Below, piece by piece: positions 18,942 to 56,024 of a stretch of DNA of 56,024 bases (its first letter is position 1; every line of letters starts with the position of its first letter). The stretch is taken from positions 1 to 56,024 of IMG/VR virus record IMGVR_UViG_3300027904_000003, one strand, 5' to 3'. Origin of the DNA: a virus. Under the pieces are notes generated by a model. That model worked only from the letters and a program-made list of their open reading frames with translations, was not told the DNA's origin and did not search any database. A program made the translations under genes and the position numbers.

Positions 18942-20325
18942 TGCTTTTATCCTCCTCTATAAATTGTTTAAATATTGGACAATTAAGTGACCGTTCGCCT
19001 GCTGCATTTCTAGATTCGCCAAATGTCTCAACTTCAATAAATTCACCTATATATTGCTGGGGTTCATTCCATATTTTTCTACGCGTAAACTCGTCAAATC
19101 CAGAGCCTACTCCAAGCTTATAGCCATCATAAATAACTATAAGCGCACCAAGCATACCTTCAAATTTACCAGTGCCTTCTACCATATCTACAACTTGTAA
19201 ACAGTGCGTTTCAGTATTCTTTACTTTAAGCAAGGTTTTAGACCTCTTTATCTCATATAATCCTGTAGCGATGTTAAGCATTACTCCCTCGCCGCCTGTG
19301 TTCCATATAGTAGCTACTATTGAAGCTACTTCATCCATGCTGCTAACCATTCCAAGTATAGGCACAAACTTAATGCGCTTAAAGACTACGTCATGAAGAC
19401 CGAAAGCTTGTGAGTACTCCCATACCTTATTTACATCATAGCCTAGGTTTGCTATGCTATTATGCTTAAATGTAGCGCCGAGGCGAAGTTTCCTATCTAA
19501 TGCGGTATGCTTGGAAGTGCCAGCATAGAACTGCTCAAGCGGCACCATGTCGAAGATATAGTAATCTAGCCCAGTCTTAACACCCTTACTATTAGCAATA
19601 GAGTTAGTAGCTTGTCGTAAGGCTATAGAATTCCTAAACTGACCACAAGCTAAAAGCTCCCCATCATACATACAGTTATCTGGTAGATGCGCCGCCTCGG
19701 CAGCCAACTCTAACAGGCCATCATCCTCGATGCCTGAGCGACTGAAGAATCTACAGGAACCATTCTCCTTGATGAGTATCCGCCGTATACCATCCAGCTT
19801 CTCTGTAACTATAGCCGGCCACTGTATTGTAGCTTTCTTATGGTCTACTCCTAACATGCACCCTACACGTGGTATGAAGTCGCTTCCGAATATAGCATTA
19901 AGACTCTTTACATCTAAGCCTATCTTTAAGTTCTGAGTTACAACAGCTTTAGCCATCTCAAATACCCAGTCTTCACCAGTATGTTGGGTTAACTGTGTGG
20001 TATAATATAAGTAGCGCGCTACCATCAGTACATCGTTATCAGTGCCAGTTTGATGGCCCCTTAAGTAGTGGATAATTTCTGTAGTGTCTATGCCCTCTGT
20101 TATGGAGCTAACAATTTTCATTGCTTTATTAAACTTTGCTTCTGATATACCAGTCTTAATATATGGATTGTAGATAAAATGCAACACTGTTTTTAAGCTT
20201 GGTAAATACTTGTTAGCAAACAAAATTGCTTTCTTATCTAAATATCCATTTGTATTATAAACTGCTTTTAGTATTCGAGCTATTTCAAGTTCATACATTA
20301 ACAATCTCCTCCAGTTCAAATTCAA
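18931..20325 (-). CDS. lig: ATP-dependent DNA ligase
   Basis: Adenylation motif I TEKLDGIR. Length and downstream motif pattern (EGVMLN, LLKVK) fit. Confidence 0.8.
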   Translation of the reverse strand: MNLNWRRLLMYELEIARILKAVYNTNGYLDKKAILFANKYLPSLKTVLHFIYNPYIKTGISEAKFNKAMKIVSSITEGIDTTEIIHYLRGHQTGTDNDVLMVARYLYYTTQLTQHTGEDWVFEMAKAVVTQNLKIGLDVKSLNAIFGSDFIPRVGCMLGVDHKKATIQWPAIVTEKLDGIRRILIKENGSCRFFSRSGIEDDGLLELAAEAAHLPDNCMYDGELLACGQFRNSIALRQATNSIANSKGVKTGLDYYIFDMVPLEQFYAGTSKHTALDRKLRLGATFKHNSIANLGYDVNKVWEYSQAFGLHDVVFKRIKFVPILGMVSSMDEVASIVATIWNTGGEGVMLNIATGLYEIKRSKTLLKVKNTETHCLQVVDMVEGTGKFEGMLGALIVIYDGYKLGVGSGFDEFTRRKIWNEPQQYIGEFIEVETFGESRNAAGERSLNCPIFKQFIEEDKSNDL

Positions 20326-20833
20326 TTTTTAATCTGTGCTTAAATACTTGTAGAGTATTGGTTACATAAGACTGAGATACGCCTATTTGCTTACTTAAGT
20401 CAGTTTTTTTAGCGCTATAGCCTGAGTCTCGCCACGCCTCTACTATAAGTTTTTGTTTTGCGCTTAATAAGTTAAGTTGCTCAGTTACTATTTCATCTAT
20501 TCGTTTTAAACGCATATTTCTTGACATCACTTCATCTGGTCCTTCGCTTACCATTAAGTTTTCAATATACTCGCCTCCTTCTTTATTTTTTGCGTGGTAC
20601 GATACTACTTCAAGCTTACTCTTTTTATTAAGAGTTCGTACGTAGCAACCCAAAGCATTATAGATACAAACAGTTGCATAAGTACTAAAAGCAATATTCT
20701 TACTACTATCGAATGTTTGTGAGGCACTCCATAGAGCTTCCATACCTAATGACTCTGCTTCAGGGTCATCGCTTAAATAATATTTATGTATTTGCGCCCA
20801 TACTAGTCCCTCATTCTTTTTTAGTATGTCCAT
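20291..20833 (-). CDS. sigma-70 family RNA polymerase sigma factor (regions 2 and 4)
   Basis: Region 2 pattern ...ALWSASQTFDSSKNIAFSTYATVCIYNAL..R. Region 4 HTH LSKQIGVSQSYVTNTLQVFKHRL. Confidence 0.8.
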   Translation of the reverse strand: MDILKKNEGLVWAQIHKYYLSDDPEAESLGMEALWSASQTFDSSKNIAFSTYATVCIYNALGCYVRTLNKKSKLEVVSYHAKNKEGGEYIENLMVSEGPDEVMSRNMRLKRIDEIVTEQLNLLSAKQKLIVEAWRDSGYSAKKTDLSKQIGVSQSYVTNTLQVFKHRLKIEFELEEIVNV

Positions 20834-24127: not shown

Positions 24128-24706
24128 TTAATCTATTATATAGACGCTGGCATTCCGAATAACACCACGCCGCAGTGCCTCATTATGACAAGGTATGTAG
24201 ATATCAATCTTGTTTCCCTTCACTACTCCGCCTACATCGTCGGCCCTTGCTCGCGCTCTATATACGGTCCCATCAGATAACTCAATGCGTAGGTATGTGC
24301 CAAGAGGAATCTTGCTTCTATCTACTGCTACTGTTATCCCTGCTTCGACGCGGCGGCCACTTGCTGTTATGCCGTTATCTTTACCGCAGCAAATAATACA
24401 ATGACAGTAGTGCGTTAGCGTAAAGTCTGTACCAAGTAATACGCCGTTTTCTACTGGCTCTCCTACATAAATAGGTGCTTCACTTCTTGTGTAGCTCCTA
24501 CTAACTGGTTGTGGGCGCTGAGTTATAGTTGGTTCTGGTTTAATGGTGGGCTCTGGCTCAACTTTGTTAGTCTCTGCTACAATGGTTGGTTCGGTTTCAT
24601 ACAATACTACAAGGTTTGTCTCTTTCTCTTCTACTCTACTCAGCAATACCAAACATCCAAATAAGCTCGCTATTAAGAGTATGGCTATTACTTTATGTAA
24701 TTTCAT
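24128..24706 (-). CDS. secreted or membrane-anchored 3D-domain cell-wall hydrolase (MltA/RlpA-like fold)
   Basis: N-terminal TM/signal segment VIAILLIASLFGCLVLL, a Pro/Thr/Glu linker, then THYCHC...GITASG...VAVD...ADDVGG..KGNKIDIY (3D-domain aspartates). Start set at the ATG behind AAAGGGGG. Confidence 0.75.
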   Translation of the reverse strand: MKLHKVIAILLIASLFGCLVLLSRVEEKETNLVVLYETEPTIVAETNKVEPEPTIKPEPTITQRPQPVSRSYTRSEAPIYVGEPVENGVLLGTDFTLTHYCHCIICCGKDNGITASGRRVEAGITVAVDRSKIPLGTYLRIELSDGTVYRARARADDVGGVVKGNKIDIYIPCHNEALRRGVIRNASVYIID

Positions 24707-24731
24707 TTTGAAATTACCCCCTTTCACTTAT

Positions 24732-27274: not shown

Positions 27275-27616
27275 TTACTGAATGAACCCATGATTCTTAC
27301 CCATATTTAAAAACCATTCTTCTATCTCATCATTTGATTTGTCTTGGAATAAAGGTATTTGGTCGCGTACCATAGAAAATCCTACTTCTTTAGCCTCTTC
27401 ATAGGATTGGCACTTTTTAAAATTGTTCCATACAGGGCTTTTGCCTTCTCTTAAATATTGCCCTAATTCAGGGCTAAGCTCTGGAGCTATTCTTGTCTCT
27501 ACTAAATCCATTATACCGAATCCAGACTGACTACGCGGAATCAGCTGGCTTATCATCGCCCACGCTCCCTTTGCTTTTACTGCTAGGCTTAGAATTCCCT
27601 TTAACATGTCCATCAT
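27275..27616 (-). CDS. hypothetical protein (113 aa)
   Basis: GGAGGAAG then 6 nt then ATG. The start lies 86 nt inside the upstream gene, in another frame. Confidence 0.55.
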   Translation of the reverse strand: MMDMLKGILSLAVKAKGAWAMISQLIPRSQSGFGIMDLVETRIAPELSPELGQYLREGKSPVWNNFKKCQSYEEAKEVGFSMVRDQIPLFQDKSNDEIEEWFLNMGKNHGFIQ

Positions 27617-28052
27617 TATTAGCTTCCTCCAGTTTCGTTAATTTTTCAAGAATTAAGTCAAGACGGCTATCTACTATGGTTTCTTCCTTCTCCTTAGGTT
27701 CTTCAGTGTCTCCGTTGACGTTGCCTGTCAATGTGCCGCTGAGCAGTTCCCAGTTACCAGAGAGAAGGTTTATCTGTCGTATGTAGATTTTACCCTCAGC
27801 TTCATTAATGAAGATTATAGAGTCACCGTCAGGATGTCTGGGGTACTTTGATAACTCCTTAAAGTCTGTTATATCTACACGTAGGGCATTATTCTGATTT
27901 GTAGATACATAGGTTGTCTTAGGTTGCTGTGGTGCTTGGTATACTGGTTCAGGTGGGCTTAATCTTTCTTCATATTTACGGCGCAGCGCCGCCTCGGCCT
28001 CACGCATCCCTTCGCTCATATACCGTTGGAAGTCATAATCATTACGCCACAT
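27531..28052 (-). CDS. hypothetical protein (173 aa; start moved to MWRNDYDF)
   Basis: AAAGGAGTGA then 5 nt then ATG at 28052. The tracked start at 28112 lies inside the terminator and promoter. Confidence 0.65.
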   Translation of the reverse strand: MWRNDYDFQRYMSEGMREAEAALRRKYEERLSPPEPVYQAPQQPKTTYVSTNQNNALRVDITDFKELSKYPRHPDGDSIIFINEAEGKIYIRQINLLSGNWELLSGTLTGNVNGDTEEPKEKEETIVDSRLDLILEKLTKLEEANNDGHVKGNSKPSSKSKGSVGDDKPADSA

Positions 28053-28076: not shown

Positions 28077-28085
28077 ATTATACCA
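28077..28085 (-). promoter_or_regulatory. extended -10 promoter element TGGTATAAT
   Basis: Minus strand, about 25 nt upstream of the ATG at 28052. No good -35 is present. Confidence 0.5.
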
Positions 28086-28090
28086 TGAAA

Positions 28091-28123
28091 AGGCACTCAA
28101 TGTAATCTTCACATTGAGTGCCT
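28091..28123 (-). terminator. intrinsic terminator after CDS 28137..28688
   Basis: AGGCACTCAATGT-7 nt-ACATTGAGTGCCT, followed by TTTCA on the minus strand. Confidence 0.75.
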
Positions 28124-28136
28124 AAAGTATTCTTTA

Positions 28137-28688
28137 TTAAAGAGCTGTTTGTAACCTTGCTAATGCTTCGCTGTGCCAAACTTTAACAGTAGAATATTCT
28201 ATATTCAATTTTTCAGCGGCTTGCATAAGTGTCATATCTTCTATATAGATGTACCTTAGCAAATCTTTATGCTTTGGCTTTATCAGCATATTACTAAGTA
28301 AAGCTTCAAAATCATCTATACTACTTATCTTCTTTAGTTTATTCTTGCGTTCCATATGAGGTGACCATTGATAAATATCCGCGTGGTTGCTCATAATAAT
28401 TGCAGCAAAAATACTTAATAAAAGGCTTAAAGCAAAAGATACACTACAAACTAAAAATAATGTTGTAAAGATTGCAGTACACCATAAGAAACATAACTGC
28501 CATTCTTTATAGTGCTTTGCTTTCTTTATAAGCACCCTCACAAGCGTAAAGGTAATTAAAATACCAAGTATCTCTTCTATGCTACGACTTAAAAATTTGC
28601 CAGAGTAGTAGATTGTTACTGCTACTCCGGCATTGAATAAAATACTTGACCAGTGCCTTAATACTTTATTCGCCAGTTCTTGAATCAC
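28137..28688 (-). CDS. membrane-tethered HTH protein: about 4 TM helices plus a C-terminal sigma-70 region-4-like domain (183 aa, GTG start)
   Basis: TM segments in residues ~15-105. C-terminus KHKDLLRYIYIEDMTLMQAAEKLNIEYSTVKVWHSEALARLQTAL fits the region-4 HTH pattern. No SD precedes the GTG, and the start is overlapped by the small ORF 28666..28785. Confidence 0.65.
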   Translation of the reverse strand: MIQELANKVLRHWSSILFNAGVAVTIYYSGKFLSRSIEEILGILITFTLVRVLIKKAKHYKEWQLCFLWCTAIFTTLFLVCSVSFALSLLLSIFAAIIMSNHADIYQWSPHMERKNKLKKISSIDDFEALLSNMLIKPKHKDLLRYIYIEDMTLMQAAEKLNIEYSTVKVWHSEALARLQTAL

Positions 28689-28785
28689 AGATTAACCAAG
28701 AAATGGGATTGTTAGCTGCAACAGTCGTAGTTAATGCAGCCAGTGCCGCAGCACTTGCTGCTAATGTAACTAAAAGTTTTTTCAT
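28666..28785 (-). CDS. small secreted pre-peptide (39 aa), not in the ORF track
   Basis: MKKLLVTLAASAAALAALTTTVAA|NNPISWLICDSRTGE has a Sec-type n/h/c signal with VAA-N, leaving a predicted 15-aa mature peptide. AAAGGAGC lies 9 nt before the ATG. Confidence 0.5.
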   Translation of the reverse strand: MKKLLVTLAASAAALAALTTTVAANNPISWLICDSRTGE

Positions 28786-28791
28786 TTCGAC

Positions 28792-29325
28792 TTAGCTCCT
28801 TTCTATAAAGTAAATAATAGCATAGTTGGTGAATAGTACTGCAATATTAAAAGCTACTACGCTAATATTTCGCACAGTTATTGACTTTATTTTAGCTTCT
28901 TTATTGATATTCCAAATAGCGCAATAAAAGTTATAGAACTTTCTACAAGCTTTGTAGATTATAAATGGTATCATAACAGTAATACACTGAGCTATACAAA
29001 ATGCTATCCAGAAATTCTCTACCAGCATAAATGTAATAAGGCATATTACTGAAAGTAACGTCATGCAAGATAATACATAAATTGCATCAAGCCAGTAAGC
29101 CTTTCTACCATACAATAGTTTCAGTGCGGCAAATATCAATAAACTAAATATAGTATAGAGTATTATATTAAACTGAACTATCGCTACGCTAACTACAAAT
29201 GATAGAAAGACTAATAAGTATAATCTAAATAATCTTACGTAAAGCTTCTTAGTTAAAGCCAGCATCATCGTTATATAGAAGGCCTGCGGCGCGACGCCGA
29301 TTAGTACATTACATAACCAGCTCAT
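28792..29325 (-). CDS. polytopic membrane protein (177 aa, about 5-6 TM)
   Basis: Hydrophobic throughout. 4-nt overlap with the amidase stop codon. Confidence 0.7.
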   Translation of the reverse strand: MSWLCNVLIGVAPQAFYITMMLALTKKLYVRLFRLYLLVFLSFVVSVAIVQFNIILYTIFSLLIFAALKLLYGRKAYWLDAIYVLSCMTLLSVICLITFMLVENFWIAFCIAQCITVMIPFIIYKACRKFYNFYCAIWNINKEAKIKSITVRNISVVAFNIAVLFTNYAIIYFIERS

Positions 29326-30044
29326 TTGGGTATCTTAGCTTTAGCAGCTCTTACACACCATACTATTGTTCTTACATCGCGCTCGCTTAGCATAGGAGCA
29401 AATCCTTGGTCGCCGTAACTAACTATACCTAAGTCAATCGCCTCGCGTAGTTCATTCTCAAGACCATGCGGAATATTGCTATCTACAAATTGGTACTTTC
29501 TAACTAAATCTTCAGGCATTATAAAATCCTCCTTTTTATTATCATTAGAGCCTCTCGGCCTTAATGTCTTAAATTCATCTAGCGGGAAAAAGCGGCCCGG
29601 ACAAGAGTTAGCTTGTAGGTCTCTATGACCTACAATATTTTTTGCAGTTGGTACTTTTTGCTGCAACCATTGTAATAAAGCTACTCCTGCGTTAAACTGT
29701 GTATCAAGCATACGCTTAGTACTATTTGAACCATTTGGAAATCTTTCAAAATCTCCTTGGAACCCTACAGATATAACAGTATCATTACGATTCGCCACAC
29801 CAGCGCCTAAATTAAGCCCGCGGCCCTCATACACCGTACCATCAAACATTACTATATAGTTGTAGCCAATAGCTCTCCAGCCTTTTTGTATATGCCATCT
29901 CTCTACTTCTTTAATGGCCTGTACAGAAGTCATATTTGCTAATGAAGCGGCCCAGTGGTGCAGTGCTATAACTTTTATTTTTTCAAGTTTTAAAGGCTGT
30001 AAGGCCGCTGTAATTACTTGGTTAGGTATTTTAGCTATTTTCAT
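29322..30044 (-). CDS. endolysin: N-acetylmuramoyl-L-alanine amidase (Amidase_2/PGRP fold) with a C-terminal domain
   Basis: LHHWAA..., GYNYIV..DGTVYEGRG, GHRDL...SCPG. Confidence 0.88.
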   Translation of the reverse strand: MKIAKIPNQVITAALQPLKLEKIKVIALHHWAASLANMTSVQAIKEVERWHIQKGWRAIGYNYIVMFDGTVYEGRGLNLGAGVANRNDTVISVGFQGDFERFPNGSNSTKRMLDTQFNAGVALLQWLQQKVPTAKNIVGHRDLQANSCPGRFFPLDEFKTLRPRGSNDNKKEDFIMPEDLVRKYQFVDSNIPHGLENELREAIDLGIVSYGDQGFAPMLSERDVRTIVWCVRAAKAKIPK

Positions 30045-30381
30045 TATTTACCTCCTTCTTTTCATGGTACCTAATAGGTAGCGCTTTTAGTCTTTTAAAT
30101 ATTTCTGTAACAGTTCCGTTGCCGCCTAATGCATAATATGCTGTGTATAAATTTTCTACATTGCGAAGTTCATCTACATAAATGTAACCTCTTCCAACAT
30201 AGTGCTTACAAGTATTAAATAATCTGTCGTAAAGTAAAGCAATAACGCCTTCATGTATTATAACTTGTTTAGAAGTATGCTCTTGAACTTTTTTCAGTGC
30301 TTTTTTGAAGTAGTAACTGAATAAGCACATAAAACCACCGCAAACAAATTCTATCCAGTATTGTACGAAAAATTCATGCAT
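30031..30381 (-). CDS. putative holin (one N-terminal TM, 116 aa)
   Basis: TM segment WIEFVCGGFMCLFSYYF. Lies immediately upstream of and overlapping the endolysin gene. Confidence 0.5.
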   Translation of the reverse strand: MHEFFVQYWIEFVCGGFMCLFSYYFKKALKKVQEHTSKQVIIHEGVIALLYDRLFNTCKHYVGRGYIYVDELRNVENLYTAYYALGGNGTVTEIFKRLKALPIRYHEKKEVNNENS

Positions 30382-30392
30382 CGCGGCGCCTC

Positions 30393-31298
30393 CTAAACTT
30401 GGTTATGTTGAATGATGCTATTAGTTGGTGCAACATTAGGATTATAAGTATCTATTTTATTTCCTATAATTCTCATATGCGAAACGCCAGCATTTATATT
30501 AAGCGTTTTTATAATGTTTGCAGTTGCTAGTACATTTGTAACATTAGTTAAATTTACAGTATTTATTTCATTCATTGATAATTTTAAGCCTTCCATTATT
30601 TCTGCAGTATTCCTACCTGTAATAGTTATAGTTTCAATATCATTACCGTACATAGTATAACGAGGGCGCCCTGTAGTTATATCTGAAGTTGTTCCTATAA
30701 ATTCAACTATACCAATGTCAGAATTTGTTACTATGAATGACCCAGTATGCATAGTTAGCTTATTACCTACGAATACGTTATGTACTTTACACTCTTTAGA
30801 CCTTAAGGCCATACTATCAACTGATACATTATATAATTTGCACTCTGAAGGCCTTAAATCCATACCAGCAACTGATAAATTAGAAATAGCAACAAAATCA
30901 ACGTAACCAGAAGTATTTATAGCCTGTATAGTACCAAGACTAGTAGAATGCTCGCTAATGCCTTCTAAAGTTACTATACGCCTATTTATTACTATAACAC
31001 CAGGACCCCTATATTGACCTTCTCGCAATACTATCCTTCCGCCCACTGTAGGTAAAGAAGCAATGGCATTATTTATAATAGTAGCATCATTAACGCCTAC
31101 TCCACCCGGACTCAATACAATTGTCGCATTACCCGCACCACCTGGTATGCCGATTGGCCCCTGCTCACCCTGCGGTCCTATTTCGCCTTGTGGGCCTTGC
31201 GCACCTTGCGGCCCTATTTCGCCTTGCGGTCCTTGCTCACCCTGCGGTCCTATTTCGCCTTGCGGTCCCTGAACATTGCCTATCAATATTCTTTCCAT
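30393..31298 (-). CDS. collagen-like (G-X-Y) tail fibre protein with a beta-helix-like C-terminal region
   Basis: [24 protein letters not shown]... covers about 15 triplets (DNA 31143-31277), followed by repetitive V/I/N/T-rich segments. Confidence 0.75.
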
Positions 31299-49453: not shown

Positions 49454-51796
49454 TTAACTACTAAGTCTTTTCCAATAACTGCCGCCTGATTTTTTTAAGC
49501 TTGTTGGTACCCTTAAAAGTGTAGGACTTCTAAAATAATTAAACGCTCCAGAAAATGCATCTATAGTATCATCTTTGTGTCCATATGGAAACGTATCAGC
49601 CTCATCTAAAAATGCAAGTATATTTCTACATTTCTGAGATACCATTACTTTTCCACCTTGCGACGCGGCAGATGCAGTTCTTGCACGCTCAATCTTGGAA
49701 CCTGTGCTAGTCATTCCTTTAAAGTCATAACCAGCTACAACATTTCTTGCATAGTGGTCTATAGTTATGTCACCTGAACTACCGGGTTCTTTTTCCATCC
49801 TAATAGCTACAGAATAGCCATCGCTTTTTGCTGTTTCTTTTATAATCTTCTCAACATCATGTGGAGTCTTTTGAACTCTCACAATATCTTCAATCCAATA
49901 TATACCTTGATAATTAGCAAGTTTTAGACCAACAGTCCAGTCAGGGTCTCGCTTATCTCTTCGCCTCTTCTTTGAAGGGTCTGTTGAAGCTGTATCCCAA
50001 TAACGTACCCTTTGAGCGTTTCTCGGTACAGTATGCTCTGGCACTATCTCAAACCAATGTCTACTGAACATATCGCCAGATTCTTTAATCTCCCAGTTAC
50101 CATTAAGGAGCTGCTCTCTAGTAGTTGCGTCTAGTTCATTCAAAGACTCTATATAGGCAGCTGCATCAAGATGCGGATTATCATTAAGCCCTGCGCCTAC
50201 AAATATTCTACCTTTATCCGGTCCTTCTATAAAGAACCGTTGATAGTAATACTCGCCATATTCTCCGCCAGGATTAGCTGTGGCTCTAAATCTCAAAGGT
50301 ACATTCAGAGTTACTGGCTTGCGCAATCTACTAAACAAGTACCTGTAGTTGCTTGGGCTTATATGCGTTGTTTCATCCATGCCTATATATTGAAATTCAG
50401 CTCCTTGATATCTGTAACAATCATTATTAGACTCAAGATACCCAAAGTTTAACGTCGCACCAGATGCAAACGTATATTGTTTCTCCTTATCAGACCACTT
50501 AACTTCTTTATCTTCTACAAAAGGCATTAACCACTGTTTACTCATATCAATTAGTGCACCAGGCAAACTTAAATCCGCATATGTCTTACGAAATAATATC
50601 GCTGAGTAGCCTGGAATATCTACAAACTGTAGGGCAGCCATTAGCTGTGCGACAGAATTATGAGTCGGTATTAATGCTCTACCTGCTAAAAATAAGGAAG
50701 ACTTAGAATTTACTTTTATACACTGTACAGGAACGCTTTCTACTTCTCTTATTTCTTTAATATAGTGTAAATATTGTGTACCTCTAAATCCAGTTCGTTT
50801 TTGTAGCTTTAATTTTCTTTCTAACTTAAACATAGGTATTTCTGTAGTCCATTTTAAAGTATATTTGGTGGTAACATAATATTCTTTGCTATTAGTACAT
50901 GTTGCTATGCTACTAGTTAAAGAAACTTTTATTCCTAAAGAACGAACTAATTGTTCTATTTGTTTCATCAATGCTAAATCTGTCATACAAATAGAGCAAT
51001 AACCTTTATCAGAAGATGCATTACCATCAGTATCCATTAACCCCTGTAGTAACTCAAGCCTTTGCGCATAGCTTGCTAATAAATATTTATCAGGAATATG
51101 TTTATTAGCTAGTAATCTATTCTCTCGTAATAAAGGATACAAATTAGGAAGCACCCATACATTCTTAGTTTTAGTATACGCTGCAAATCCATCATTTTTA
51201 ATATATGAATAAATTTCATTATCTTGTGCAGCGCAGTCACCAGAATTCTTACACCCATCGCCTAGCCAAACACCTAATGTATACGGTGGAATAGGTAACT
51301 CATATTTTGTACCCTGTAAAGGCTTAGTAACTTTTATAGCATGTTTAGTTCTGCTGCCCATAGTATCTACTATTTCTTGTGTAGTCATTGTTTTATTACA
51401 GTCTCTATTTTGGTATTGATGCAACGTCCATAAATGGTCTGCGTCTGCATCTAAATACGTATTATTATCAAAATTTATCCTGTATATTTTATGACCATAC
51501 ATTACTTCTGATTTAGCCGTAACTTCACATAGAGCGCCCATTTCATCAAAAAGCTTGTCACCTACTTGTAAATCACCCATAGTAGACCATCCATTACTTG
51601 TAAGTATTTCTGTAGATAACGGTAACGCTTTCCCGCCTCCTGCTGCTCCACCATACAAAATCTCCTTAGTGTTATTCATCAATAAAAATGCAGTCTGCTT
51701 CGGCGTTGGTTTATACGGTATAAACTTAGTTAGCCGTGGCGTCAGCCGTCTCTGTAATTCATTAATGTTAACCTGACTCAAATCTACTTCGCTCAT
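49454..51796 (-). CDS. terL: terminase large subunit precursor (780 aa) interrupted by an intein
   Basis: Walker A is split: YGGAAGGGK / intein / SVAQLMAAL. Downstream are MDETTH (Walker B-like) and a C-terminal nuclease region. Confidence 0.9.
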   Translation of the reverse strand: MSEVDLSQVNINELQRRLTPRLTKFIPYKPTPKQTAFLLMNNTKEILYGGAAGGGKALPLSTEILTSNGWSTMGDLQVGDKLFDEMGALCEVTAKSEVMYGHKIYRINFDNNTYLDADADHLWTLHQYQNRDCNKTMTTQEIVDTMGSRTKHAIKVTKPLQGTKYELPIPPYTLGVWLGDGCKNSGDCAAQDNEIYSYIKNDGFAAYTKTKNVWVLPNLYPLLRENRLLANKHIPDKYLLASYAQRLELLQGLMDTDGNASSDKGYCSICMTDLALMKQIEQLVRSLGIKVSLTSSIATCTNSKEYYVTTKYTLKWTTEIPMFKLERKLKLQKRTGFRGTQYLHYIKEIREVESVPVQCIKVNSKSSLFLAGRALIPTHNSVAQLMAALQFVDIPGYSAILFRKTYADLSLPGALIDMSKQWLMPFVEDKEVKWSDKEKQYTFASGATLNFGYLESNNDCYRYQGAEFQYIGMDETTHISPSNYRYLFSRLRKPVTLNVPLRFRATANPGGEYGEYYYQRFFIEGPDKGRIFVGAGLNDNPHLDAAAYIESLNELDATTREQLLNGNWEIKESGDMFSRHWFEIVPEHTVPRNAQRVRYWDTASTDPSKKRRRDKRDPDWTVGLKLANYQGIYWIEDIVRVQKTPHDVEKIIKETAKSDGYSVAIRMEKEPGSSGDITIDHYARNVVAGYDFKGMTSTGSKIERARTASAASQGGKVMVSQKCRNILAFLDEADTFPYGHKDDTIDAFSGAFNYFRSPTLLRVPTSLKKSGGSYWKRLSS
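50657..51628 (-). mobile_element. 324-aa intein with a LAGLIDADG homing endonuclease domain; Ala1 and WCT signature (class 3)
   Basis: Residues 57-380 of TerL. N-terminus ALPLSTEILT..., block B DADHLW (Trp two residues after His), LAGLIDADG motifs LGVWLGDGC and LLQGLMDTDG, block F VQCIKV (Cys at the F:4 position), block G ALIPTHN followed by Ser+1. Confidence 0.85.
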
Positions 51797-53728: not shown

Positions 53729-53892
53729 TTACACAACCCCCCTTACCTATTTATATTATACGTATTTTGCAGCTTTTTTAGGGCTATACATCGCGTGCTT
53801 GCTACTAGTACGTAATTTTTAACCCTTTATTTTATCTACAAGTTCTAGTACGGGCCTGCTACGAGTAAATTTATTTTGTTACATTTTATATT

Positions 53893-53916
53893 TTTATATA
53901 CGCGCGCGTATATAAA
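53893..53916. repeat. perfect 24-nt palindrome TTTATATACGCGCGCGTATATAAA
   Basis: Read directly; (CG)4 core flanked by AT-rich arms. Confidence 0.9.
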
Positions 53917-53966
53917 TTTTAATGATTTTTAATGCAGTAGCGCTGCGTTTATTCTATGCCAATTGT

Positions 53967-54046
53967 GCCGTATACTCATTACCTATAAGACAGCTTCTGC
54001 GCCACGGCCGTATACCCATTACCTATAAGACAGCTTCTGCGCCACG
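53967..54046. repeat. 40-bp direct tandem repeat x2 (GCCGTATAC[T/C]CATTACCTATAAGACAGCTTCTGCGCCACG)
   Basis: 53967-54006 and 54007-54046 differ at one position. Confidence 0.9.
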
Positions 54047-54145
54047 GCGCCAAAAGTACCCCATTTCTACTGTCTTAAAAATTTGAATTTTAATACTTCG
54101 TCTTAAAAGAATTCTTTTTATTTCCTATTGTTTTTCCTGCATTAA

Positions 54146-54187
54146 AATATAATGCCGTTGGCATTATATTGCAAAGCGTTGCTTTGC
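54146..54187 (-). terminator. two abutting hairpins (candidate early-transcript terminator)
   Basis: AATATAATGCC-GTT-GGCATTATATT at 54146-54170 and GCAAAGC-GTT-GCTTTGC at 54171-54187. Confidence 0.45.
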
Positions 54188-54265
54188 CTTAAAATTACTC
54201 GCTACGCTTCATAATTTTCTTATTCTTTTCTACGTATATTATATACAATTATTACTTTATCTTAT

Positions 54266-54454
54266 AAATAAATGGTTGAACTATATTCCTCTCCATAAAT
54301 ATTGCTGCGTGCAAAATTATATATTAAATAAGAAATGTTCCATTTCTTATTTAATATATAATTTTGCTTACCGAATATATTATCGCTTCGCTCAATATAT
54401 TCGTTATAAACGCAGCAATATTTATTCCGAGAAATATAGTTCAACCATTTATTT
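54266..54454. repeat. ~190-nt nested palindrome (22-bp and 14-bp outer stems enclosing a 27-bp-stem hairpin and a 10-bp-stem hairpin)
   Basis: Pairs: 54266-54287 with 54433-54454; 54297-54310 with 54410-54423; 54311-54337 with 54341-54367; 54372-54381 with 54394-54403. Confidence 0.9.
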
Positions 54455-54545
54455 CCAACTATTTCCTCTCCATAAACTTCCATTTAATTCCTACAATTTA
54501 TTTCCAACTATTTCCTCTCCATAAACTTCCATTTAATTCCTACAA
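54448..54545. repeat. 49-bp direct tandem repeat x2
   Basis: 54448-54496 equals 54497-54545 (TTTATTTCCAACTATTTCCTCTCCATAAACTTCCATTTAATTCCTACAA). A partial third copy TTCCTCTCCATAAA lies at 54287-54300. Confidence 0.9.
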
Positions 54546-54701
54546 TTCAATTTCAATTTCAATTTCATACATATCTTCTATACCATCTACCTCTTTATAT
54601 ACACAATCCAAATCCAACGCTAACAATACATCAAGCAATTTTTCCAATTCTTTTCTATCACCTCTAATTCGCACTACCTCATATTTAACCCAACTATACA
54701 T
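54540..54701 (-). CDS. small early protein (53 aa), paralog of 55441..55623; not in the ORF track
   Basis: AGAGGAGGTGGAAAGTAT then ATG. MYSWVKYEVVRIRGD...LLDVLLALDLDCVYKEVDG aligns with MIVHKYEIIGATF...LIKLVLDSLDVSYEVEE. Confidence 0.65.
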   Translation of the reverse strand: MYSWVKYEVVRIRGDRKELEKLLDVLLALDLDCVYKEVDGIEDMYEIEIEIEL

Positions 54702-54738
54702 ATACTTTCCACCTCCTCTCTTTCTTTAACCTACCCCT

Positions 54739-54767
54739 ATTATACACTACTTCTAACATCTTGTCAA
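54739..54767 (-). promoter_or_regulatory. consensus sigma-A promoter TTGACA-N17-TATAAT
   Basis: Minus strand: TTGACA at 54762-54767, 17-nt spacer, TATAAT at 54739-54744. Confidence 0.85.
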
Positions 54768-54830
54768 CCCTTTTTATATTACAATTATATTACAATTCCT
54801 ATTTCCATATATTACCAATTATCATACATA

Positions 54831-54863
54831 AAAATATATTTCATTTTACTGAAATATATTTTT
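54831..54863 (-). terminator. AT-rich intrinsic terminator after CDS 54875..55429
   Basis: AAAATATATTTCA-6 nt-TGAAATATATTTT gives a 13-bp stem ending in a T-run on either strand. Confidence 0.7.
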
Positions 54864-54874
54864 ACTTTCATTAT

Positions 54875-55429
54875 TCAATTTCCATTATCTTTAGCCACTT
54901 CAATTTCATTATTTACTAATTTTTCCAAACTTTCAATAATTACATTTTTATCCAAATCACCCGCGCCCTTCAATATATCAATAATAACTTGAACATCACT
55001 TTTTCTAACTAAACTTCCATCAATTTTATCAACAACCTTTTTTCTTTCATTCAACATTTTTTCAATTTCACACGCTTTTCTAAATTCATCATTATCCCCC
55101 TCTACTTCTGTTAACCATCTACACAAACTTTTTTTACTCTGAATACTTCTCAACGCCTTAATAACTTCTTCATAACTCAATTTACTAACATCATCAATAT
55201 CATAATTAGTTACACTCTTTTCCCGAGGCACCAACACCCCTCTACTTTCTTTCAACAATTGCTCATAATTCAAAATTTTATTTAATTCATCCTCATATCC
55301 TTTTTTACCTTTACATTTCAACAACCTACATTTCAAACTTTGCACCCTTTTTAATTCCGCAGCAATTTCAACAACATTACCATCAAATTTTTTAATAATT
55401 TCATTTACCTTTTTTTCCATTTCTAACAT
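54875..55429 (-). CDS. hypothetical early protein (184 aa); distant paralog of 1694..2530
   Basis: RBS AAAGGAGATG. Shares the LRSIQSKKS motif with 1694..2530. Confidence 0.7.
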   Translation of the reverse strand: MLEMEKKVNEIIKKFDGNVVEIAAELKRVQSLKCRLLKCKGKKGYEDELNKILNYEQLLKESRGVLVPREKSVTNYDIDDVSKLSYEEVIKALRSIQSKKSLCRWLTEVEGDNDEFRKACEIEKMLNERKKVVDKIDGSLVRKSDVQVIIDILKGAGDLDKNVIIESLEKLVNNEIEVAKDNGN

Positions 55430-55440
55430 CTCCTTTATTT

Positions 55441-55623
55441 TTAATACTCTATTCTTTCCTTACTTTCATACTTTTTAGCATCTATTATACAACTATTTGT
55501 ATACTCTTCAACCTCATAACTAACATCTAATGAATCTAATACTAACTTAATTAATTCAACATCTTTATCACCCTTTTTACACATAAACGTCGCACCAATA
55601 ATCTCATATTTATGCACTATCAT
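55441..55623 (-). CDS. small early protein (60 aa; start moved to MIVHKYE)
   Basis: AGAGGAGGTGGAAAGT then ATG at 55623, the same RBS geometry as its paralog. Confidence 0.7.
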   Translation of the reverse strand: MIVHKYEIIGATFMCKKGDKDVELIKLVLDSLDVSYEVEEYTNSCIIDAKKYESKERIEY

Positions 55624-55658
55624 ACTTTCCACCTCCTCTCTTTCTTTAATCTACCCCT

Positions 55659-55687
55659 ATTATACACTACTTCTAACATCTTGTCAA
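55659..55687 (-). promoter_or_regulatory. consensus sigma-A promoter TTGACA-N17-TATAAT
   Basis: Minus strand: TTGACA at 55682-55687, TATAAT at 55659-55664. Part of a ~120-nt block duplicated at 54703-54822. Confidence 0.85.
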
Positions 55688-55729
55688 CCCTTTTTATATT
55701 ACAATTATATTACAATTCCTATCTCCATA

Positions 55730-55866
55730 TATTACCAATTATCCAATATTACCAATTATCCAATATTACCAATTATCCAATATTACCAATTATCCAATAT
55801 TACCAATTATCCAATATTACCAATTATCCAATATTACCAATTATCCAATATTACCAATTACCAATT
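55730..55866. repeat. 17-bp tandem repeat (TATTACCAATTATCCAA), 7 full units plus a partial unit
   Basis: Units start at 55730 and recur every 17 nt. Each unit has two CCAAT motifs 8 and 9 nt apart. Only one unit is present in the duplicated block at 54810-54822. Confidence 0.95.
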
Positions 55867-55885
55867 GTTGCTATAGCTTGCCAAC

Positions 55886-56024
55886 GCTGCGCCGCGGCGG
55901 CTAAAAGCTTCAGCTCGCTCAGCTCGCGCCGCGGCGGCTAAAAGCTTCGGTCTGCGCAAAACGCGCCGCGGCGGCTAAAAGCTTCGGTCTGCGCAAAACG
56001 CGCCGCGGCGGCTAAAAGCTTCGG
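55886..56024. repeat. 37-bp GC-rich tandem array at the right end (one variant unit, two canonical units, 21-nt partial unit)
   Basis: 55930-56024 is identical to 1-95. The variant unit carries CAGCTCGCTCAGCTCGC, as in the internal array. Confidence 0.95.

What the first reader, a model, noticed from the sequence alone, without database searches (positions are those of the whole stretch)
28137..29325. Post-endolysin cassette: polytopic membrane protein, 39-aa secreted pre-peptide, membrane-tethered HTH; candidate peptide-signalling or immunity module
Directly after the amidase, three coupled genes follow.
1. A 177-aa protein with 5-6 TM helices.
2. An untracked 39-aa ORF with a clean Sec-type signal (MKKLLVTLAASAAALAALTTTVAA) that would release about 15 aa (NNPISWLICDSRTGE, with a single Cys).
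3. A 4-TM protein ending in a sigma region-4-like HTH. Its GTG start has no RBS and is overlapped by the peptide gene.

A secreted short peptide next to a membrane-bound transcription factor is the logic of peptide-sensing one-component systems. Phage communication systems such as arbitrium also use a short Sec-exported pre-peptide, though with cytoplasmic TPR receptors. The architecture does not match arbitrium, Agr (no AgrB His/Cys motif seen), Rgg/SHP or ComRS. If real, it would be an undescribed arrangement. Alternatives are a bacteriocin-like peptide plus immunity protein, or a superinfection-exclusion set. All functional readings are inference.
Basis: inference. Interest (0 to 1): 0.65.

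Follow-up and report, generated by a model that had tools for sequence, protein, structure and literature searches.

The report
Phage mini-Agr peptide cassette (AgrB–HTH fusion)
The three small genes after this phage's cell-wall-cutting enzyme are real and conserved, and the "membrane-tethered regulator" turns out to be a shortened AgrB-type peptide-processing enzyme fused to a DNA-binding domain, sitting next to its likely cysteine-containing substrate peptide: an undescribed compact cousin of the Agr quorum-sensing machinery.

Summary
Three tightly coupled minus-strand genes follow the amidase: a 177-aa six-helix membrane protein, a 39-aa ORF with a strong ribosome-binding site, and a 183-aa four-helix membrane protein ending in a sigma region-4 HTH. 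A strong terminator closes the operon.

- The 183-aa protein belongs to a family of about 92 sequence clusters. Its membrane domain matches Pfam AgrB in 34 of 54 members.
- The only invariant residues in that family are His59 and Cys66, with the same H-x6-C spacing as in a canonical phage AgrB.
- In all 13 independent related loci the same trio recurs, always with a tiny ORF ending W-hydrophobic-C-[DNS]-[STP]-x-x-G-[EQ]-stop.
- Only the window and one or two relatives carry a signal-like leader, so Sec secretion is not the conserved feature.

Best reading: a minimal AgrD-like precursor is processed, probably cyclised, by an AgrB(N-half)–sigma4 fusion, with an unknown six-helix partner. No AgrC/AgrA was found. 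The biological output (signalling, host interference or an antimicrobial) is inferred only. I found no description of this architecture in the searchable literature.

The parts
29322..30044 (-). Endolysin (N-acetylmuramoyl-L-alanine amidase). It is the upstream neighbour, and its stop codon overlaps the start of the cassette.
   Evidence: Pfam Amidase_2, E 1e-13; PHROG 822 amidase, E 2.5e-24. ATGA overlap with the next gene.
28792..29325 (-). 177-aa partner membrane protein with six helices. It has a conserved basic loop, Y131...W138-N...K145-x-K147-S148-x-T150-x-R152-N153, placed in the cytoplasm by the positive-inside rule. Function unknown; candidate exporter, scaffold or sensor.
   Evidence: Hydropathy and K/R distribution. 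Homologues P0003 and P0004 are 49% identical over the matched regions. A homologous gene sits directly upstream of the peptide in every locus examined; the nine-sequence alignment A6 has invariant K26, W138, K147, S148, T150 and R152. No hit in Pfam, NCBIfam, PHROGs, PADLOC or PDB sequences. hhalign against AgrB and AgrC is not significant. The AF2 model is unusable, pLDDT 49.
28796..28801 (-). Shine-Dalgarno sequence (AAGGAG) of the 39-aa ORF, 10 nt before its ATG.
   Evidence: Read directly from the sequence. Equivalent GGAGG-type sites precede the small ORF in most related loci, weaker in L004.
28666..28785 (-). 39-aa precursor peptide, a minimal AgrD-like candidate. Residues 1-24 form a hydrophobic, signal-like leader (28714-28785). 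Residues 25-37, NNPISWLICDSRT, form the core, with Cys33 at 28687-28689. The last two residues, Gly-Glu, are the putative two-residue follower.
   Evidence: The ORF and its motif W-hydrophobic-C-[DNS]-[STP]-x-x-G-[EQ]-stop are conserved in 14 peptides from 13 loci. Synonymous differences from L002 support translation. The motif is unique in the window. L021 carries two tandem paralogous copies.
28374..28688 (-). AgrB-like N-terminal domain of the 183-aa protein (residues 1 to about 105), with four transmembrane helices. The putative catalytic residues are His59 (28512-28514) and Cys66 (28491-28493), on the K/R-rich loop predicted to face the cytoplasm. Arg51 is the equivalent of AgrB R70.
   Evidence: A phmmer search of 1.84 billion representatives found 92 relatives. 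Pfam AgrB hits 34 of 54 members, several above the 23-bit cut-off. H59 and C66 are the only invariant columns. The position of R51 is R or K in 52 of 53 members. hhalign against phiCDHM1 AgrB gives E 5e-4 with H and C aligned. The AF2 model has pLDDT 92.5, with helices 13-32, 37-54, 63-81 and 85-98.
28140..28361 (-). C-terminal sigma-70 region-4-type HTH domain of the 183-aa protein (residues about 110-183), predicted to be cytoplasmic.
   Evidence: Pfam Sigma70_r4, 28.7 bits against a cut-off of 24.1. Weaker hits: DUF1492 and PHROG 36 'transcriptional regulator' (E 1.4e-9). NCBIfam sigma70-ECF, E 2.5e-7. Foldseek matches sigma region-4 (-35 binding) domains 3hug, 3vep and 8jzt at rmsd 1.2-1.6 A over 57-59 residues.
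28087..28123 (-). Intrinsic terminator that closes the late, lysis and cassette transcription unit: a 15-bp stem at 28091-28123 followed by UUUU.
   Evidence: The 71-nt stretch containing it folds at -25.6 kcal/mol, z-score -5.9, with 0 of 200 shuffles folding as well. A hairpin terminator follows the AgrB-HTH gene in nearly all related loci examined.
28077..28106 (-). Promoter-like site with an extended -10 (TG-n-TATAAT), overlapping the terminator. It would drive the next gene, 27531-28052.
   Evidence: Promoter scan: 10 of 12 matches plus the TG. The same terminator-plus-TATAAT layout is present in L003. Function is inferred.

Best explanation
The cassette is a compact Agr-type peptide-maturation module carried at the 3' end of a phage late/lysis operon.

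**Components**
- The 39-aa ORF is a minimal AgrD-like precursor. It has an optional hydrophobic leader, an aromatic/hydrophobic stretch, an invariant Cys, four polar residues, and a two-residue Gly-Glu follower.
- The 183-aa protein keeps only the first four membrane helices of AgrB. Its His59/Cys66 pair sits on the loop predicted to face the cytoplasm. AgrB's last two helices are replaced by a cytoplasmic sigma region-4 HTH.
- The 177-aa six-helix protein is an obligatory partner of unknown fold.

**Proposed mechanism (inferred)**
1. The peptide docks at the inner face of the membrane.
2. Cys66 attacks the bond before Gly-Glu and releases the dipeptide.
3. The peptide's own Cys resolves the acyl-enzyme into a roughly five-residue thiolactone, c(C-D-S-R-T) in this window.
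4. In this window the leader would then be removed after V-A-A.
5. The product leaves through the partner protein, or simply when the phage lyses the cell.
6. The fused HTH links the enzyme to transcription, through autoregulation or control of a phage or host promoter.

**Shown versus inferred**
- Shown: homology, the invariant catalytic-type residues, conserved synteny, peptide conservation, and operon structure.
- Inferred: catalysis, cyclisation, export, the DNA target and the biological output.
For: **The 183-aa protein is AgrB-like**
- It has 92 relatives at E<=1e-3 in 1.84 billion representatives.
- 34 of 54 full-length relatives hit Pfam AgrB, best E 5e-10. P0006, P0010, P0012, P0035, P0085 and P0099 score 26-29.6 bits against a cut-off of 23.
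- His59 and Cys66 are the only invariant columns. Every member that covers the domain has H-x6-C.
- hhalign against phiCDHM1 AgrB aligns H with H and C with C, E 5e-4.
- The basic residue equivalent to AgrB R70 is kept in 52 of 53 members. R70, G75, H77 and C84 are the residues reported as required for AgrB activity (PMC10196373).

**The peptide is conserved next to it**
- A tiny ORF with an invariant Cys followed by [DNS]-[STP]-x-x-G-[EQ]-stop lies directly upstream of the AgrB-HTH gene in 13 of 13 independent loci.
- Twelve of the 14 peptides have exactly six residues after the Cys.
- That spacing allows a five-residue ring plus x-Glu. In S. aureus, cleavage follows the fifth ring residue (M32|D33-E34), and D33 and E34 are essential.
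- Gly-Glu is kept even where those codons do not serve as the Shine-Dalgarno sequence of the next gene, as in the window and L014.
- L021 has two tandem paralogous peptides, which is typical of precursor genes.
- The canonical clostridial phage AgrD also has a signal-like hydrophobic leader.

**Structure, topology and operon**
- The partner gene is homologous in all loci.
- The K/R-rich loops place His/Cys, the partner's conserved loop and the HTH on the cytoplasmic side.
- The AF2 model is confident, pLDDT 92.5. Its C-terminal domain superposes on sigma region-4 structures.
- The cassette is co-transcribed with the lysis genes and ends at a terminator.
- Phage precedent: phiCDHM1 carries agrD-agrB-agrC immediately after its endolysin (PMC3901668).
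Against: - The window protein itself has no direct Pfam AgrB hit, even at E<=10. Its closest relative reaches only 15.2 bits. Membership therefore rests on transitive and profile evidence.
- Only the N-terminal half of AgrB is present. The C-terminal half, including the K129-131 loop reported as needed for AIP (autoinducing peptide) formation, is missing. Cyclisation may therefore not occur, or may need the partner protein.
- The follower is 2 residues instead of 14-15 and lacks the P-x-x-P/acidic recognition tail of AgrD.
- The putative ring is polar, unlike known AIPs.
- Two peptides (L004, L020) have only five residues after the Cys, and the L021 peptides end in Gly-Gln.
- The Gly equivalent to AgrB G75 is Lys in the window, and is Gly in only 30 of 53 family members.
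- No AgrC or AgrA homologue and no other receptor was found in the window.
- There are no experimental data. The host is uncultured (metagenome contig).
Confidence: 0.6

Rival explanations
1. A Sec-exported, signal-peptidase-cleaved linear 15-mer is sensed from outside by a membrane-tethered HTH one-component receptor, following arbitrium or Phr logic.
For: - The window and L002 peptides have an MKK n-region, a hydrophobic core and a conserved V-A-A cut site.
- The HTH is membrane-anchored.
- A chromosomal copy lies two genes from a Peptidase_S26 signal peptidase.
Against: - Ten of 13 related loci encode 13-25-aa peptides with no leader at all, so export by Sec cannot be the conserved step.
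- The conserved residues of the 'receptor' are a His/Cys pair on the loop predicted to face the cytoplasm. They are homologous to a peptidase active site, not to an extracellular binding loop.
Confidence: 0.1
2. Same biosynthesis, different output. The cyclic or processed peptide is an antimicrobial, a bacteriocin-like ribosomally made modified peptide, or an inhibitor of the host's or competitors' Agr receptors. The 177-aa membrane protein would provide immunity or export.
For: - A polytopic membrane protein invariably sits next to a small modified-peptide gene, which is the usual bacteriocin-plus-immunity layout.
- Chromosomal copies sit beside variable defence islands, QatB in L012 and CBASS in L013.
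- The module is made late and would be released at lysis.
Against: - There is no similarity to known immunity, ABC-exporter or defence families.
- This reading does not explain the fused DNA-binding domain.
- The peptides are very short and acidic, unlike typical bacteriocins.
Confidence: 0.12
3. The small ORF is mainly a regulatory leader peptide, acting through translational coupling, attenuation or ribosome arrest in the manner of TnaC, SecM or MifM. It would control translation of the downstream membrane-HTH gene and would not be a substrate.
For: - In most loci the peptide's last codons form the Shine-Dalgarno sequence of the next gene.
- In the window the next start lies inside the peptide ORF and has no Shine-Dalgarno sequence of its own.
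- Small hairpins separate the peptide and the downstream gene in L014 and L021.
- Conserved Trp...Asp...stop features recall TnaC (from my own knowledge).
Against: - Gly-Glu and the Cys motif are kept where no Shine-Dalgarno role exists, as in the window and L014.
- L021 has two tandem copies.
- The invariant Cys lies next to an enzyme whose homologues act on exactly such a Cys peptide.
- Coupling and substrate roles are not mutually exclusive.
Confidence: 0.08
4. The AgrB-like domain is only a membrane anchor or a regulated-release device for a RinA/ArpU/sigma4-type phage late regulator. The peptide and the partner protein would modulate its release or activity without forming any cyclic peptide.
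For: - The C-terminal domain gives weak hits to DUF1492, PHROG 36 and RinA-type regulators.
- The linker at residues 99-109 is the only low-confidence part of the model.
Against: - Absolute conservation of only His and Cys argues for catalysis rather than anchoring.
- The gene lies at the end of the late operon rather than ahead of it.
- The phage already encodes a sigma factor at 20291-20833.
Confidence: 0.05

Closest known systems
AgrB/AgrD of the staphylococcal and clostridial agr system (Pfam PF04647; membrane cysteine peptidase plus autoinducing-peptide precursor)
   Same: - A homologous membrane domain with the H-x6-C pair and the upstream basic residue.
- An adjacent small precursor with one essential-looking Cys and an acidic C-terminus.
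- Spacing compatible with a five-residue ring.
- In this window, a hydrophobic leader like those of clostridial AgrDs.
   Different: - Only four of AgrB's six helices are present.
- The C-terminal third is replaced by a sigma region-4 HTH.
- The precursor lies upstream rather than downstream.
- The follower is 2 residues, not 14-15, and has no P-x-x-P.
- The leader is absent in most relatives.
- A conserved six-helix partner has no counterpart in agr.
- There is no AgrC or AgrA.
The agr3 locus of Clostridioides difficile phage phiCDHM1 (agrD-agrB-agrC next to the endolysin; PMC3901668)
   Same: - Phage-borne Agr-type genes lie immediately after the lysis genes.
- No response regulator is present on the phage.
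   Different: - phiCDHM1 carries full-length AgrB, a canonical AgrD with a long follower, and a histidine kinase. They sit on the opposite strand, as a lysogenic-conversion cassette of a temperate phage.
- Here the genes are co-transcribed with the lysis genes, in a phage with its own DNA polymerase, primase-helicase and ligase. No integrase was detected among the ORFs scanned.
- The architecture is fused and minimised.
Arbitrium (AimP/AimR/AimX) and phage Rap-Phr peptide communication
   Same: A phage-encoded short peptide that could report previous infections. The window peptide has a signal-like leader.
   Different: - No TPR/RRNPP-type receptor was seen among the window ORFs scanned.
- The conserved element is a Cys motif next to a peptidase homologue.
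- Most relatives lack an export signal.
Membrane-tethered one-component transcription factors (ToxR, CadC, BcrR)
   Same: A DNA-binding domain is fused directly to a polytopic or bitopic membrane domain, so signal and DNA binding sit in one protein.
   Different: - Those proteins use winged-helix or XRE domains at the N-terminus. Here a sigma region-4 fold is C-terminal.
- The membrane domain here is homologous to an enzyme.
RinA/ArpU/DUF1492 sigma-like late-gene activators of Gram-positive phages
   Same: The C-terminal domain gives weak hits to DUF1492, PHROG 36 and TIGR01636, and has a region-4 fold.
   Different: - Those regulators are soluble, about 140 aa long, and are usually encoded ahead of the packaging genes (from my own knowledge).
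- This protein is membrane-embedded and encoded last in the late operon.

Membership tests
AgrB (Pfam PF04647, membrane cysteine peptidase) | Sequence match to the curated family model at or above its cut-off of 23 bits | tested here: inconclusive
   The window protein has no hit even at E<=10. Its 58%-identical relative in L003 scores 15.2 bits. More distant members of the same phmmer family score 26-29.6 bits, and 34 of 54 members hit at E<=0.01. hhalign of the family against phiCDHM1 AgrB gives E 5e-4.
AgrB (Pfam PF04647, membrane cysteine peptidase) | Catalytic His and Cys separated by six residues (S. aureus H77/C84) at the cytoplasmic start of the third helix | tested here: met
   H59 and C66 are the only invariant columns, in 53 of 53 members. 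They align with the H and C of phiCDHM1 AgrB. They lie in a K/R-rich loop. Residue roles are from PMC10196373.
AgrB (Pfam PF04647, membrane cysteine peptidase) | Equivalents of R70 and G75, which are required for peptidase activity | tested here: inconclusive
   The R51 position is R or K in 52 of 53 members (R in the window). The Gly position is G in 30 of 53 members but Lys55 in the window. There is a one-residue insertion relative to AgrB.
AgrB (Pfam PF04647, membrane cysteine peptidase) | Full six-helix architecture, including the C-terminal half with the K129-131 loop needed for AIP (autoinducing peptide) formation | tested here: not met
   Only four membrane helices are present (residues 13-98). 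The Pfam matches of most members cover roughly profile positions 22-112 of 185. Residues 110-183 form a soluble sigma4 fold.
AgrD (autoinducing-peptide precursor) | A conserved Cys (or Ser) in the core, five residues before the cleavage site | tested here: inconclusive
   The Cys is invariant in 14 of 14 peptides. Twelve of 14 have six residues after it, which is compatible with a five-residue ring plus a Gly-Glu/Gln follower. The cleavage site itself is not known.
AgrD (autoinducing-peptide precursor) | A charged C-terminal follower of about 14-15 residues with a P-x-x-P/acidic recognition motif | tested here: not met
   At most two residues (Gly-Glu) could act as follower, and there is no P-x-x-P.
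AgrD (autoinducing-peptide precursor) | An N-terminal membrane-targeting leader of about 24 residues | tested here: inconclusive
   Present in the window (24 aa) and L002, and as an atypical leader in L019. Absent in the other ten loci.
Complete agr quorum-sensing circuit | An AgrC histidine kinase and an AgrA LytTR response regulator encoded with agrBD | tested here: not met
   None lies in the cassette or its flanks in any locus. tblastn of phiCDHM1 AgrC against the window gives a best E of 0.5. Not every window ORF was scanned with profile models.
Sigma-70 region 4 HTH (PF04545) | A match above the curated cut-off, plus the region-4 fold | tested here: met
   28.7 bits against a cut-off of 24.1. 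Foldseek gives rmsd 1.2-1.6 A over 57-59 residues to sigma region-4 domains, with local probability 1.00. DNA binding was not tested.
Sec-type signal peptide | A basic n-region, a hydrophobic h-region and a small-x-small cleavage site, with the peptide exported and cleaved | tested here: inconclusive
   MKK, a 19-residue hydrophobic core (Kyte-Doolittle mean 1.92) and V-A-A are present in the window, and V-A-A also in L002. No SignalP was available, and most relatives lack the feature. A canonical clostridial phage AgrD leader looks similar.
Arbitrium (AimR/AimP) | A cytoplasmic TPR receptor (AimR) encoded next to the peptide gene | tested here: not met
   The neighbours are an AgrB-like/sigma4 protein and a six-helix membrane protein. 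No TPR family hit appeared.

The most novel reading that the evidence does not exclude
The AgrB(N)-sigma4 fusion could be both the maker and the sensor of the cyclic peptide. AgrB chemistry is reported to be reversible (from my own knowledge). If so, a thiolactone peptide released by earlier lysis events could re-acylate Cys66 in a newly infected cell and switch the fused DNA-binding domain. That would give apparently virulent Clostridia phages a self-contained, covalent, one-protein communication system that tunes late transcription or lysis timing, with no kinase or response regulator.
Probability: 0.1. Interest if true: 0.95.

Novelty: new variant of a known kind. Interest (0 to 1): 0.78.

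Why it matters
- Agr-type cyclic-peptide signalling is a central Gram-positive quorum-sensing system.
- In the literature I could search, the only described phage-borne example is phiCDHM1, which carries the canonical genes.
- This cassette shows that a stripped-down version recurs in uncultured Clostridia phages and in at least one Clostridia chromosome. It consists of half an AgrB fused to a DNA-binding domain, a 13-39-aa precursor with a two-residue follower, and an unknown six-helix partner. The enzyme family has about 92 clusters at 50% identity.
- If the enzyme is active, it defines the minimal requirements for AgrB-type processing.
- It would also provide a very small, genetically encoded route to cyclic peptides.
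- It offers a directly testable candidate for peptide communication, or host quorum-sensing interference, by gut phages that look lytic.
- It also shows that unannotated 13-39-aa ORFs next to lysis genes can be the key component of a system.

Tried and rejected
- **DNA search against GenBank phages:** no match for the region.
- **tblastn against GenBank phages:** only chance HTH hits for the 183-aa protein, and no match for two family members.
- **Word-indexed protein search:** the 183-aa protein found only itself. Searching again with the family profile added little.
- **IMG/VR scans:** nothing for the 183-aa protein, the 177-aa protein or the subfamily profile. The full family alignment was too diverse to derive a search pattern.
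- **GTDB genome scans:** the subfamily profile found nothing. P0112 found one Clostridia MAG.
- **Frameshift or sequencing-error fusion of the 39-aa and 183-aa frames:** rejected.
  - A stop codon lies two codons before the GTG.
  - The overlap contains no homopolymer.
  - All relatives keep two separate genes.
- **The 177-aa protein as the missing C-terminal half of AgrB or as an AgrC-like sensor:** hhalign E-values were 0.16-0.44, so this is not supported. It also has no His, so it is neither AgrB-like nor a CAAX/MroQ-type protease.
- **The 177-aa protein related to the AgrB-like domain of the 183-aa protein:** not supported.
- **Defence-system models (PADLOC):** no hit for either protein family.
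- **Structure prediction of the 177-aa protein:** No fold search was attempted on it.
- **The terminator palindrome as a conserved operator:** rejected, because the hairpin sequences differ between loci.
- **Solved AgrB structure:** no AgrB chain appeared among the PDB sequence or fold matches.
Full report
**1. Observation**

All genes in the region are on the minus strand.
- The amidase (29322-30044; Pfam Amidase_2, E 1e-13) is followed by a 177-aa ORF (28792-29325). The ATG of that ORF overlaps the amidase stop.
- Next comes a 39-aa ORF (28666-28785), preceded by AAGGAG at a 10-nt spacing.
- Last is a 183-aa ORF (28137-28688). Its GTG start has no Shine-Dalgarno sequence and lies 23 nt inside the 39-aa ORF, in the +1 frame. 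A TAA two codons upstream rules out a longer in-frame start.
- Hydropathy and the K/R distribution give about six helices for the 177-aa protein. For the 183-aa protein they give four helices plus a cytoplasmic C-terminus.
- The C-terminus of the 183-aa protein passes the Pfam Sigma70_r4 cut-off, 28.7 against 24.1 bits.

**2. Context**

- The window is essentially one metagenome contig, ENA ERZ27257344 k141_3231951. The gene caller there missed the 39-aa ORF.
- The contig is a phage with its own family-A DNA polymerase, primase-helicase, ligase, RecE-like exonuclease and a sigma factor. No integrase was found among the ORFs scanned. It has no DNA match in GenBank phages.
- The cassette is the last part of the structural and lysis transcription unit.
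- Immediately after the 183-aa gene there is a 15-bp-stem hairpin followed by UUUU. The stretch folds at -25.6 kcal/mol with z = -5.9.
- The hairpin overlaps a promoter-like site with an extended -10 for the next gene, 27531-28052.
- Nearly all related loci examined also end the cassette with a hairpin terminator.

**3. Relatives and the key reinterpretation**

- Word-indexed searches found nothing for the 183-aa protein. The 177-aa protein had two homologues, each 49% identical over the matched region.
- The contigs of those homologues (L002, L003) carry the same gene order: membrane protein, small ORF, then a homologue of the 183-aa protein. In L002 an amidase lies upstream.
- An exhaustive phmmer search with the 183-aa protein found 92 representatives at E<=1e-3. 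Most are 185-220 aa and match the membrane domain.
- Scanning these against Pfam gave AgrB (PF04647), profile positions about 22-112 of 185, for 34 of 54 full-length members. The best E-value is 5e-10, and several members score above the 23-bit cut-off.
- In the 54-sequence alignment the only invariant columns are His59 and Cys66. Every member that covers the domain has H-x6-C.
- A profile comparison with the annotated AgrB of phage phiCDHM1 aligns His with His and Cys with Cys, E 5e-4.
- Published work identifies R70, G75, H77 and C84 as the residues needed for AgrB peptidase activity (PMC10196373). The family keeps R or K at the R70-equivalent position in 52 of 53 members. It keeps Gly in 30 of 53, and the window has Lys there.
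- The window protein itself does not reach the Pfam model, so its assignment is transitive.
- AlphaFold2 with the family alignment gives a confident model, pLDDT 92.5. It has four membrane helices, a short lower-confidence linker, and a five-helix C-terminal domain.
- Foldseek superposes that C-terminal domain on sigma region-4 (-35 binding) domains at 1.2-1.6 A.
- No AgrB chain appeared among the PDB sequence or fold matches.

**4. The peptide**

I examined 13 independent loci. They include phage-like contigs, one chromosomal site in a Clostridia MAG, and one locus with a LexA-like repressor gene divergently upstream. In every one, a tiny ORF with its own Shine-Dalgarno sequence lies between the partner gene and the AgrB-HTH gene.

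| Locus | Peptide |
|---|---|
| window | ...NNPISWLICDSRTGE |
| L002 | ...SPISWVYACDSKEGE |
| L003 | MPIISWVFFCNSEEGE |
| L004 | MWSFFWVCDSDGE |
| L007 | MWDIPPIWSSFFFCDTVEGE |
| L011 | MNWDDFFGKFPLKCWGFFCNTEKGE |
| L012 | MPIFSTWFFCDTEDGE |
| L014 | MIISIAWFCDSADGE |
| L017 | MWSLWLFCDSDSGE |
| L019 | MTYVLGLCAAVGAMLLQRPWSWAGICDPADGE |
| L020 | MPPIDCLFWFCSTDGE |
| L021 (two tandem copies) | MIFSFFGFCDSESGQ and MIFSWWGFCDTVDGQ |
| L022 | MPVHSFLWFCNTEDGE |

- The conserved part is aromatic/hydrophobic-C-[DNS]-[STP]-x-x-G-[EQ]-stop.
- Twelve of the 14 peptides have exactly six residues after the Cys.
- Window against L002: of the 18 identical residues, 9 use different synonymous codons, and the indels are in frame.
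- The motif occurs once in all six frames of the window.
- Gly-Glu is retained in the window and in L014, where those codons are not the Shine-Dalgarno sequence of the next gene. The conservation is therefore at the protein level.
- Only the window and L002 have a classical signal-like leader with V-A-A. L019 has a hydrophobic leader without a basic n-region.
- The canonical AgrD of phiCDHM1 also starts with a signal-like hydrophobic leader. A "clean Sec signal" therefore does not separate this peptide from AgrD.

**5. The partner protein**

- The 176-186-aa membrane protein upstream is homologous in all loci examined. In the nine-sequence alignment, K26, W138, K147, S148, T150 and R152 are invariant.
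- The conserved basic loop is predicted to lie on the cytoplasmic face.
- It has no detectable relationship to AgrB, to an AgrC sensor region, to Pfam, NCBIfam, PHROG or PADLOC families, or to PDB sequences.
- Its AF2 model is unusable.
- It contains no His, so it is not an AgrB or CAAX/MroQ-type protease.

**6. Mechanism**

*Shown:*
- an AgrB-homologous domain with invariant catalytic-type residues;
- a fused sigma4 fold;
- an invariably adjacent Cys peptide;
- an invariably adjacent partner protein;
- co-transcription with the lysis genes, and a terminator.

*Inferred:* the AgrB-like domain removes the Gly-Glu follower and probably forms a thiolactone ring of about five residues.
- This is analogous to AgrB cleaving AgrD at M32|D33-E34, with E34 essential. 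The general scheme is in PMC8251862.
- The leader, where present, would be removed afterwards.
- Release would be by the partner protein or by phage lysis.
- The fused HTH would provide a transcriptional link.

*Weak points:*
- The C-terminal half of AgrB is missing, including the loop reported as needed for AIP formation.
- The follower is only two residues long.
- The putative ring is polar.
- Two peptides have five residues after the Cys.
- No receptor has been identified.

**7. Rival explanations**

- **A Sec-secreted linear peptide sensed by a receptor HTH.** The leaderless relatives and the enzyme-type conservation argue against it.
- **A bacteriocin-like product with the partner as immunity protein.** This is compatible with the biosynthesis but does not explain the HTH.
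- **A purely regulatory leader peptide.** The coupling is real, but protein-level conservation, the tandem copies in L021 and the adjacent enzyme argue for a substrate.
- **The AgrB-like domain as a mere anchor.** Conservation of only His and Cys argues for catalysis.

**8. Comparison and novelty**

- The cassette works like AgrBD, but it fails several membership features of canonical AgrB (six helices), AgrD (long follower) and the full agr circuit (AgrC/AgrA).
- The nearest phage precedent is the canonical agrD-agrB-agrC set next to the endolysin of phiCDHM1 (PMC3901668).
- Four full-text literature searches found no description of an AgrB-HTH fusion or of these mini-precursors.
- I therefore rate it a new variant of a known kind. 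Interest is high, because it offers a minimal, testable peptide-processing or communication module in uncultured gut-type Clostridia phages.

Noticed in passing
window 49454-51796 (-): The large terminase subunit (Terminase_6N/6C) carries an inserted Hom_end/LAGLIDADG_3 segment at residues about 245-307. This suggests an intein or a homing-endonuclease insertion in the packaging ATPase.
   Followed up: no
window 53730-56024: A long repeat-rich stretch with few ORFs at the contig end. It has tandem repeats of 40, 49, 17 (8.4 copies, 55724-55865) and 37 bp (55889-56024, running to the window end). GC content swings from 0.51 to 0.31, with GC skew -0.62. It may be an origin, packaging or regulatory region, or the junction of a circular assembly.
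   Followed up: partly
window 20291-20833 (-): The phage encodes its own sigma factor (PHROG 351, E 1e-13; a weak Sigma70_r2 hit). It could be relevant to what the sigma4-like domain of the cassette protein does.
   Followed up: no
window 30393-31298 (-) and 30031-30381 (-): A collagen-like (GPQGEI repeat) tail-fibre-type protein lies just upstream of the lysis genes. The 116-aa protein before the amidase (PHROG 4105, one N-terminal hydrophobic helix) is the probable holin.
   Followed up: no
window 24128-24727 (-): A second cell-wall-hydrolase-like gene with weak L-alanyl-D-glutamate peptidase PHROG hits lies outside the lysis module, in the region downstream of the cassette.
   Followed up: no
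L012 5382-7872 and L013 5382-7872: A chromosomal copy of the trio sits in a Clostridia MAG. On one side it is flanked by different defence islands in two samples: KAP NTPase/QatB/QueC/TatD in L012 and CBASS (SMODS, E2/ThiF, JAB, Cap15) in L013. On the other side are a 50-aa ORF and a Peptidase_S26 signal peptidase.
   Followed up: partly
L021 about 830-960: This relative carries two tandem paralogous precursor ORFs, MIFSFFGFCDSESGQ and MIFSWWGFCDTVDGQ, ending in Gly-Gln instead of Gly-Glu. A hairpin follows them, before the AgrB-HTH gene.
   Followed up: partly
window 28686-28689 (-): The GTG start codon of the 183-aa gene overlaps the codon of the peptide's invariant Cys (TGT-G). In relatives the enzyme gene instead starts 1-8 nt after the peptide stop in most loci, and about 50-70 nt after it in L014 and L021. 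The window arrangement therefore looks derived.
   Followed up: yes
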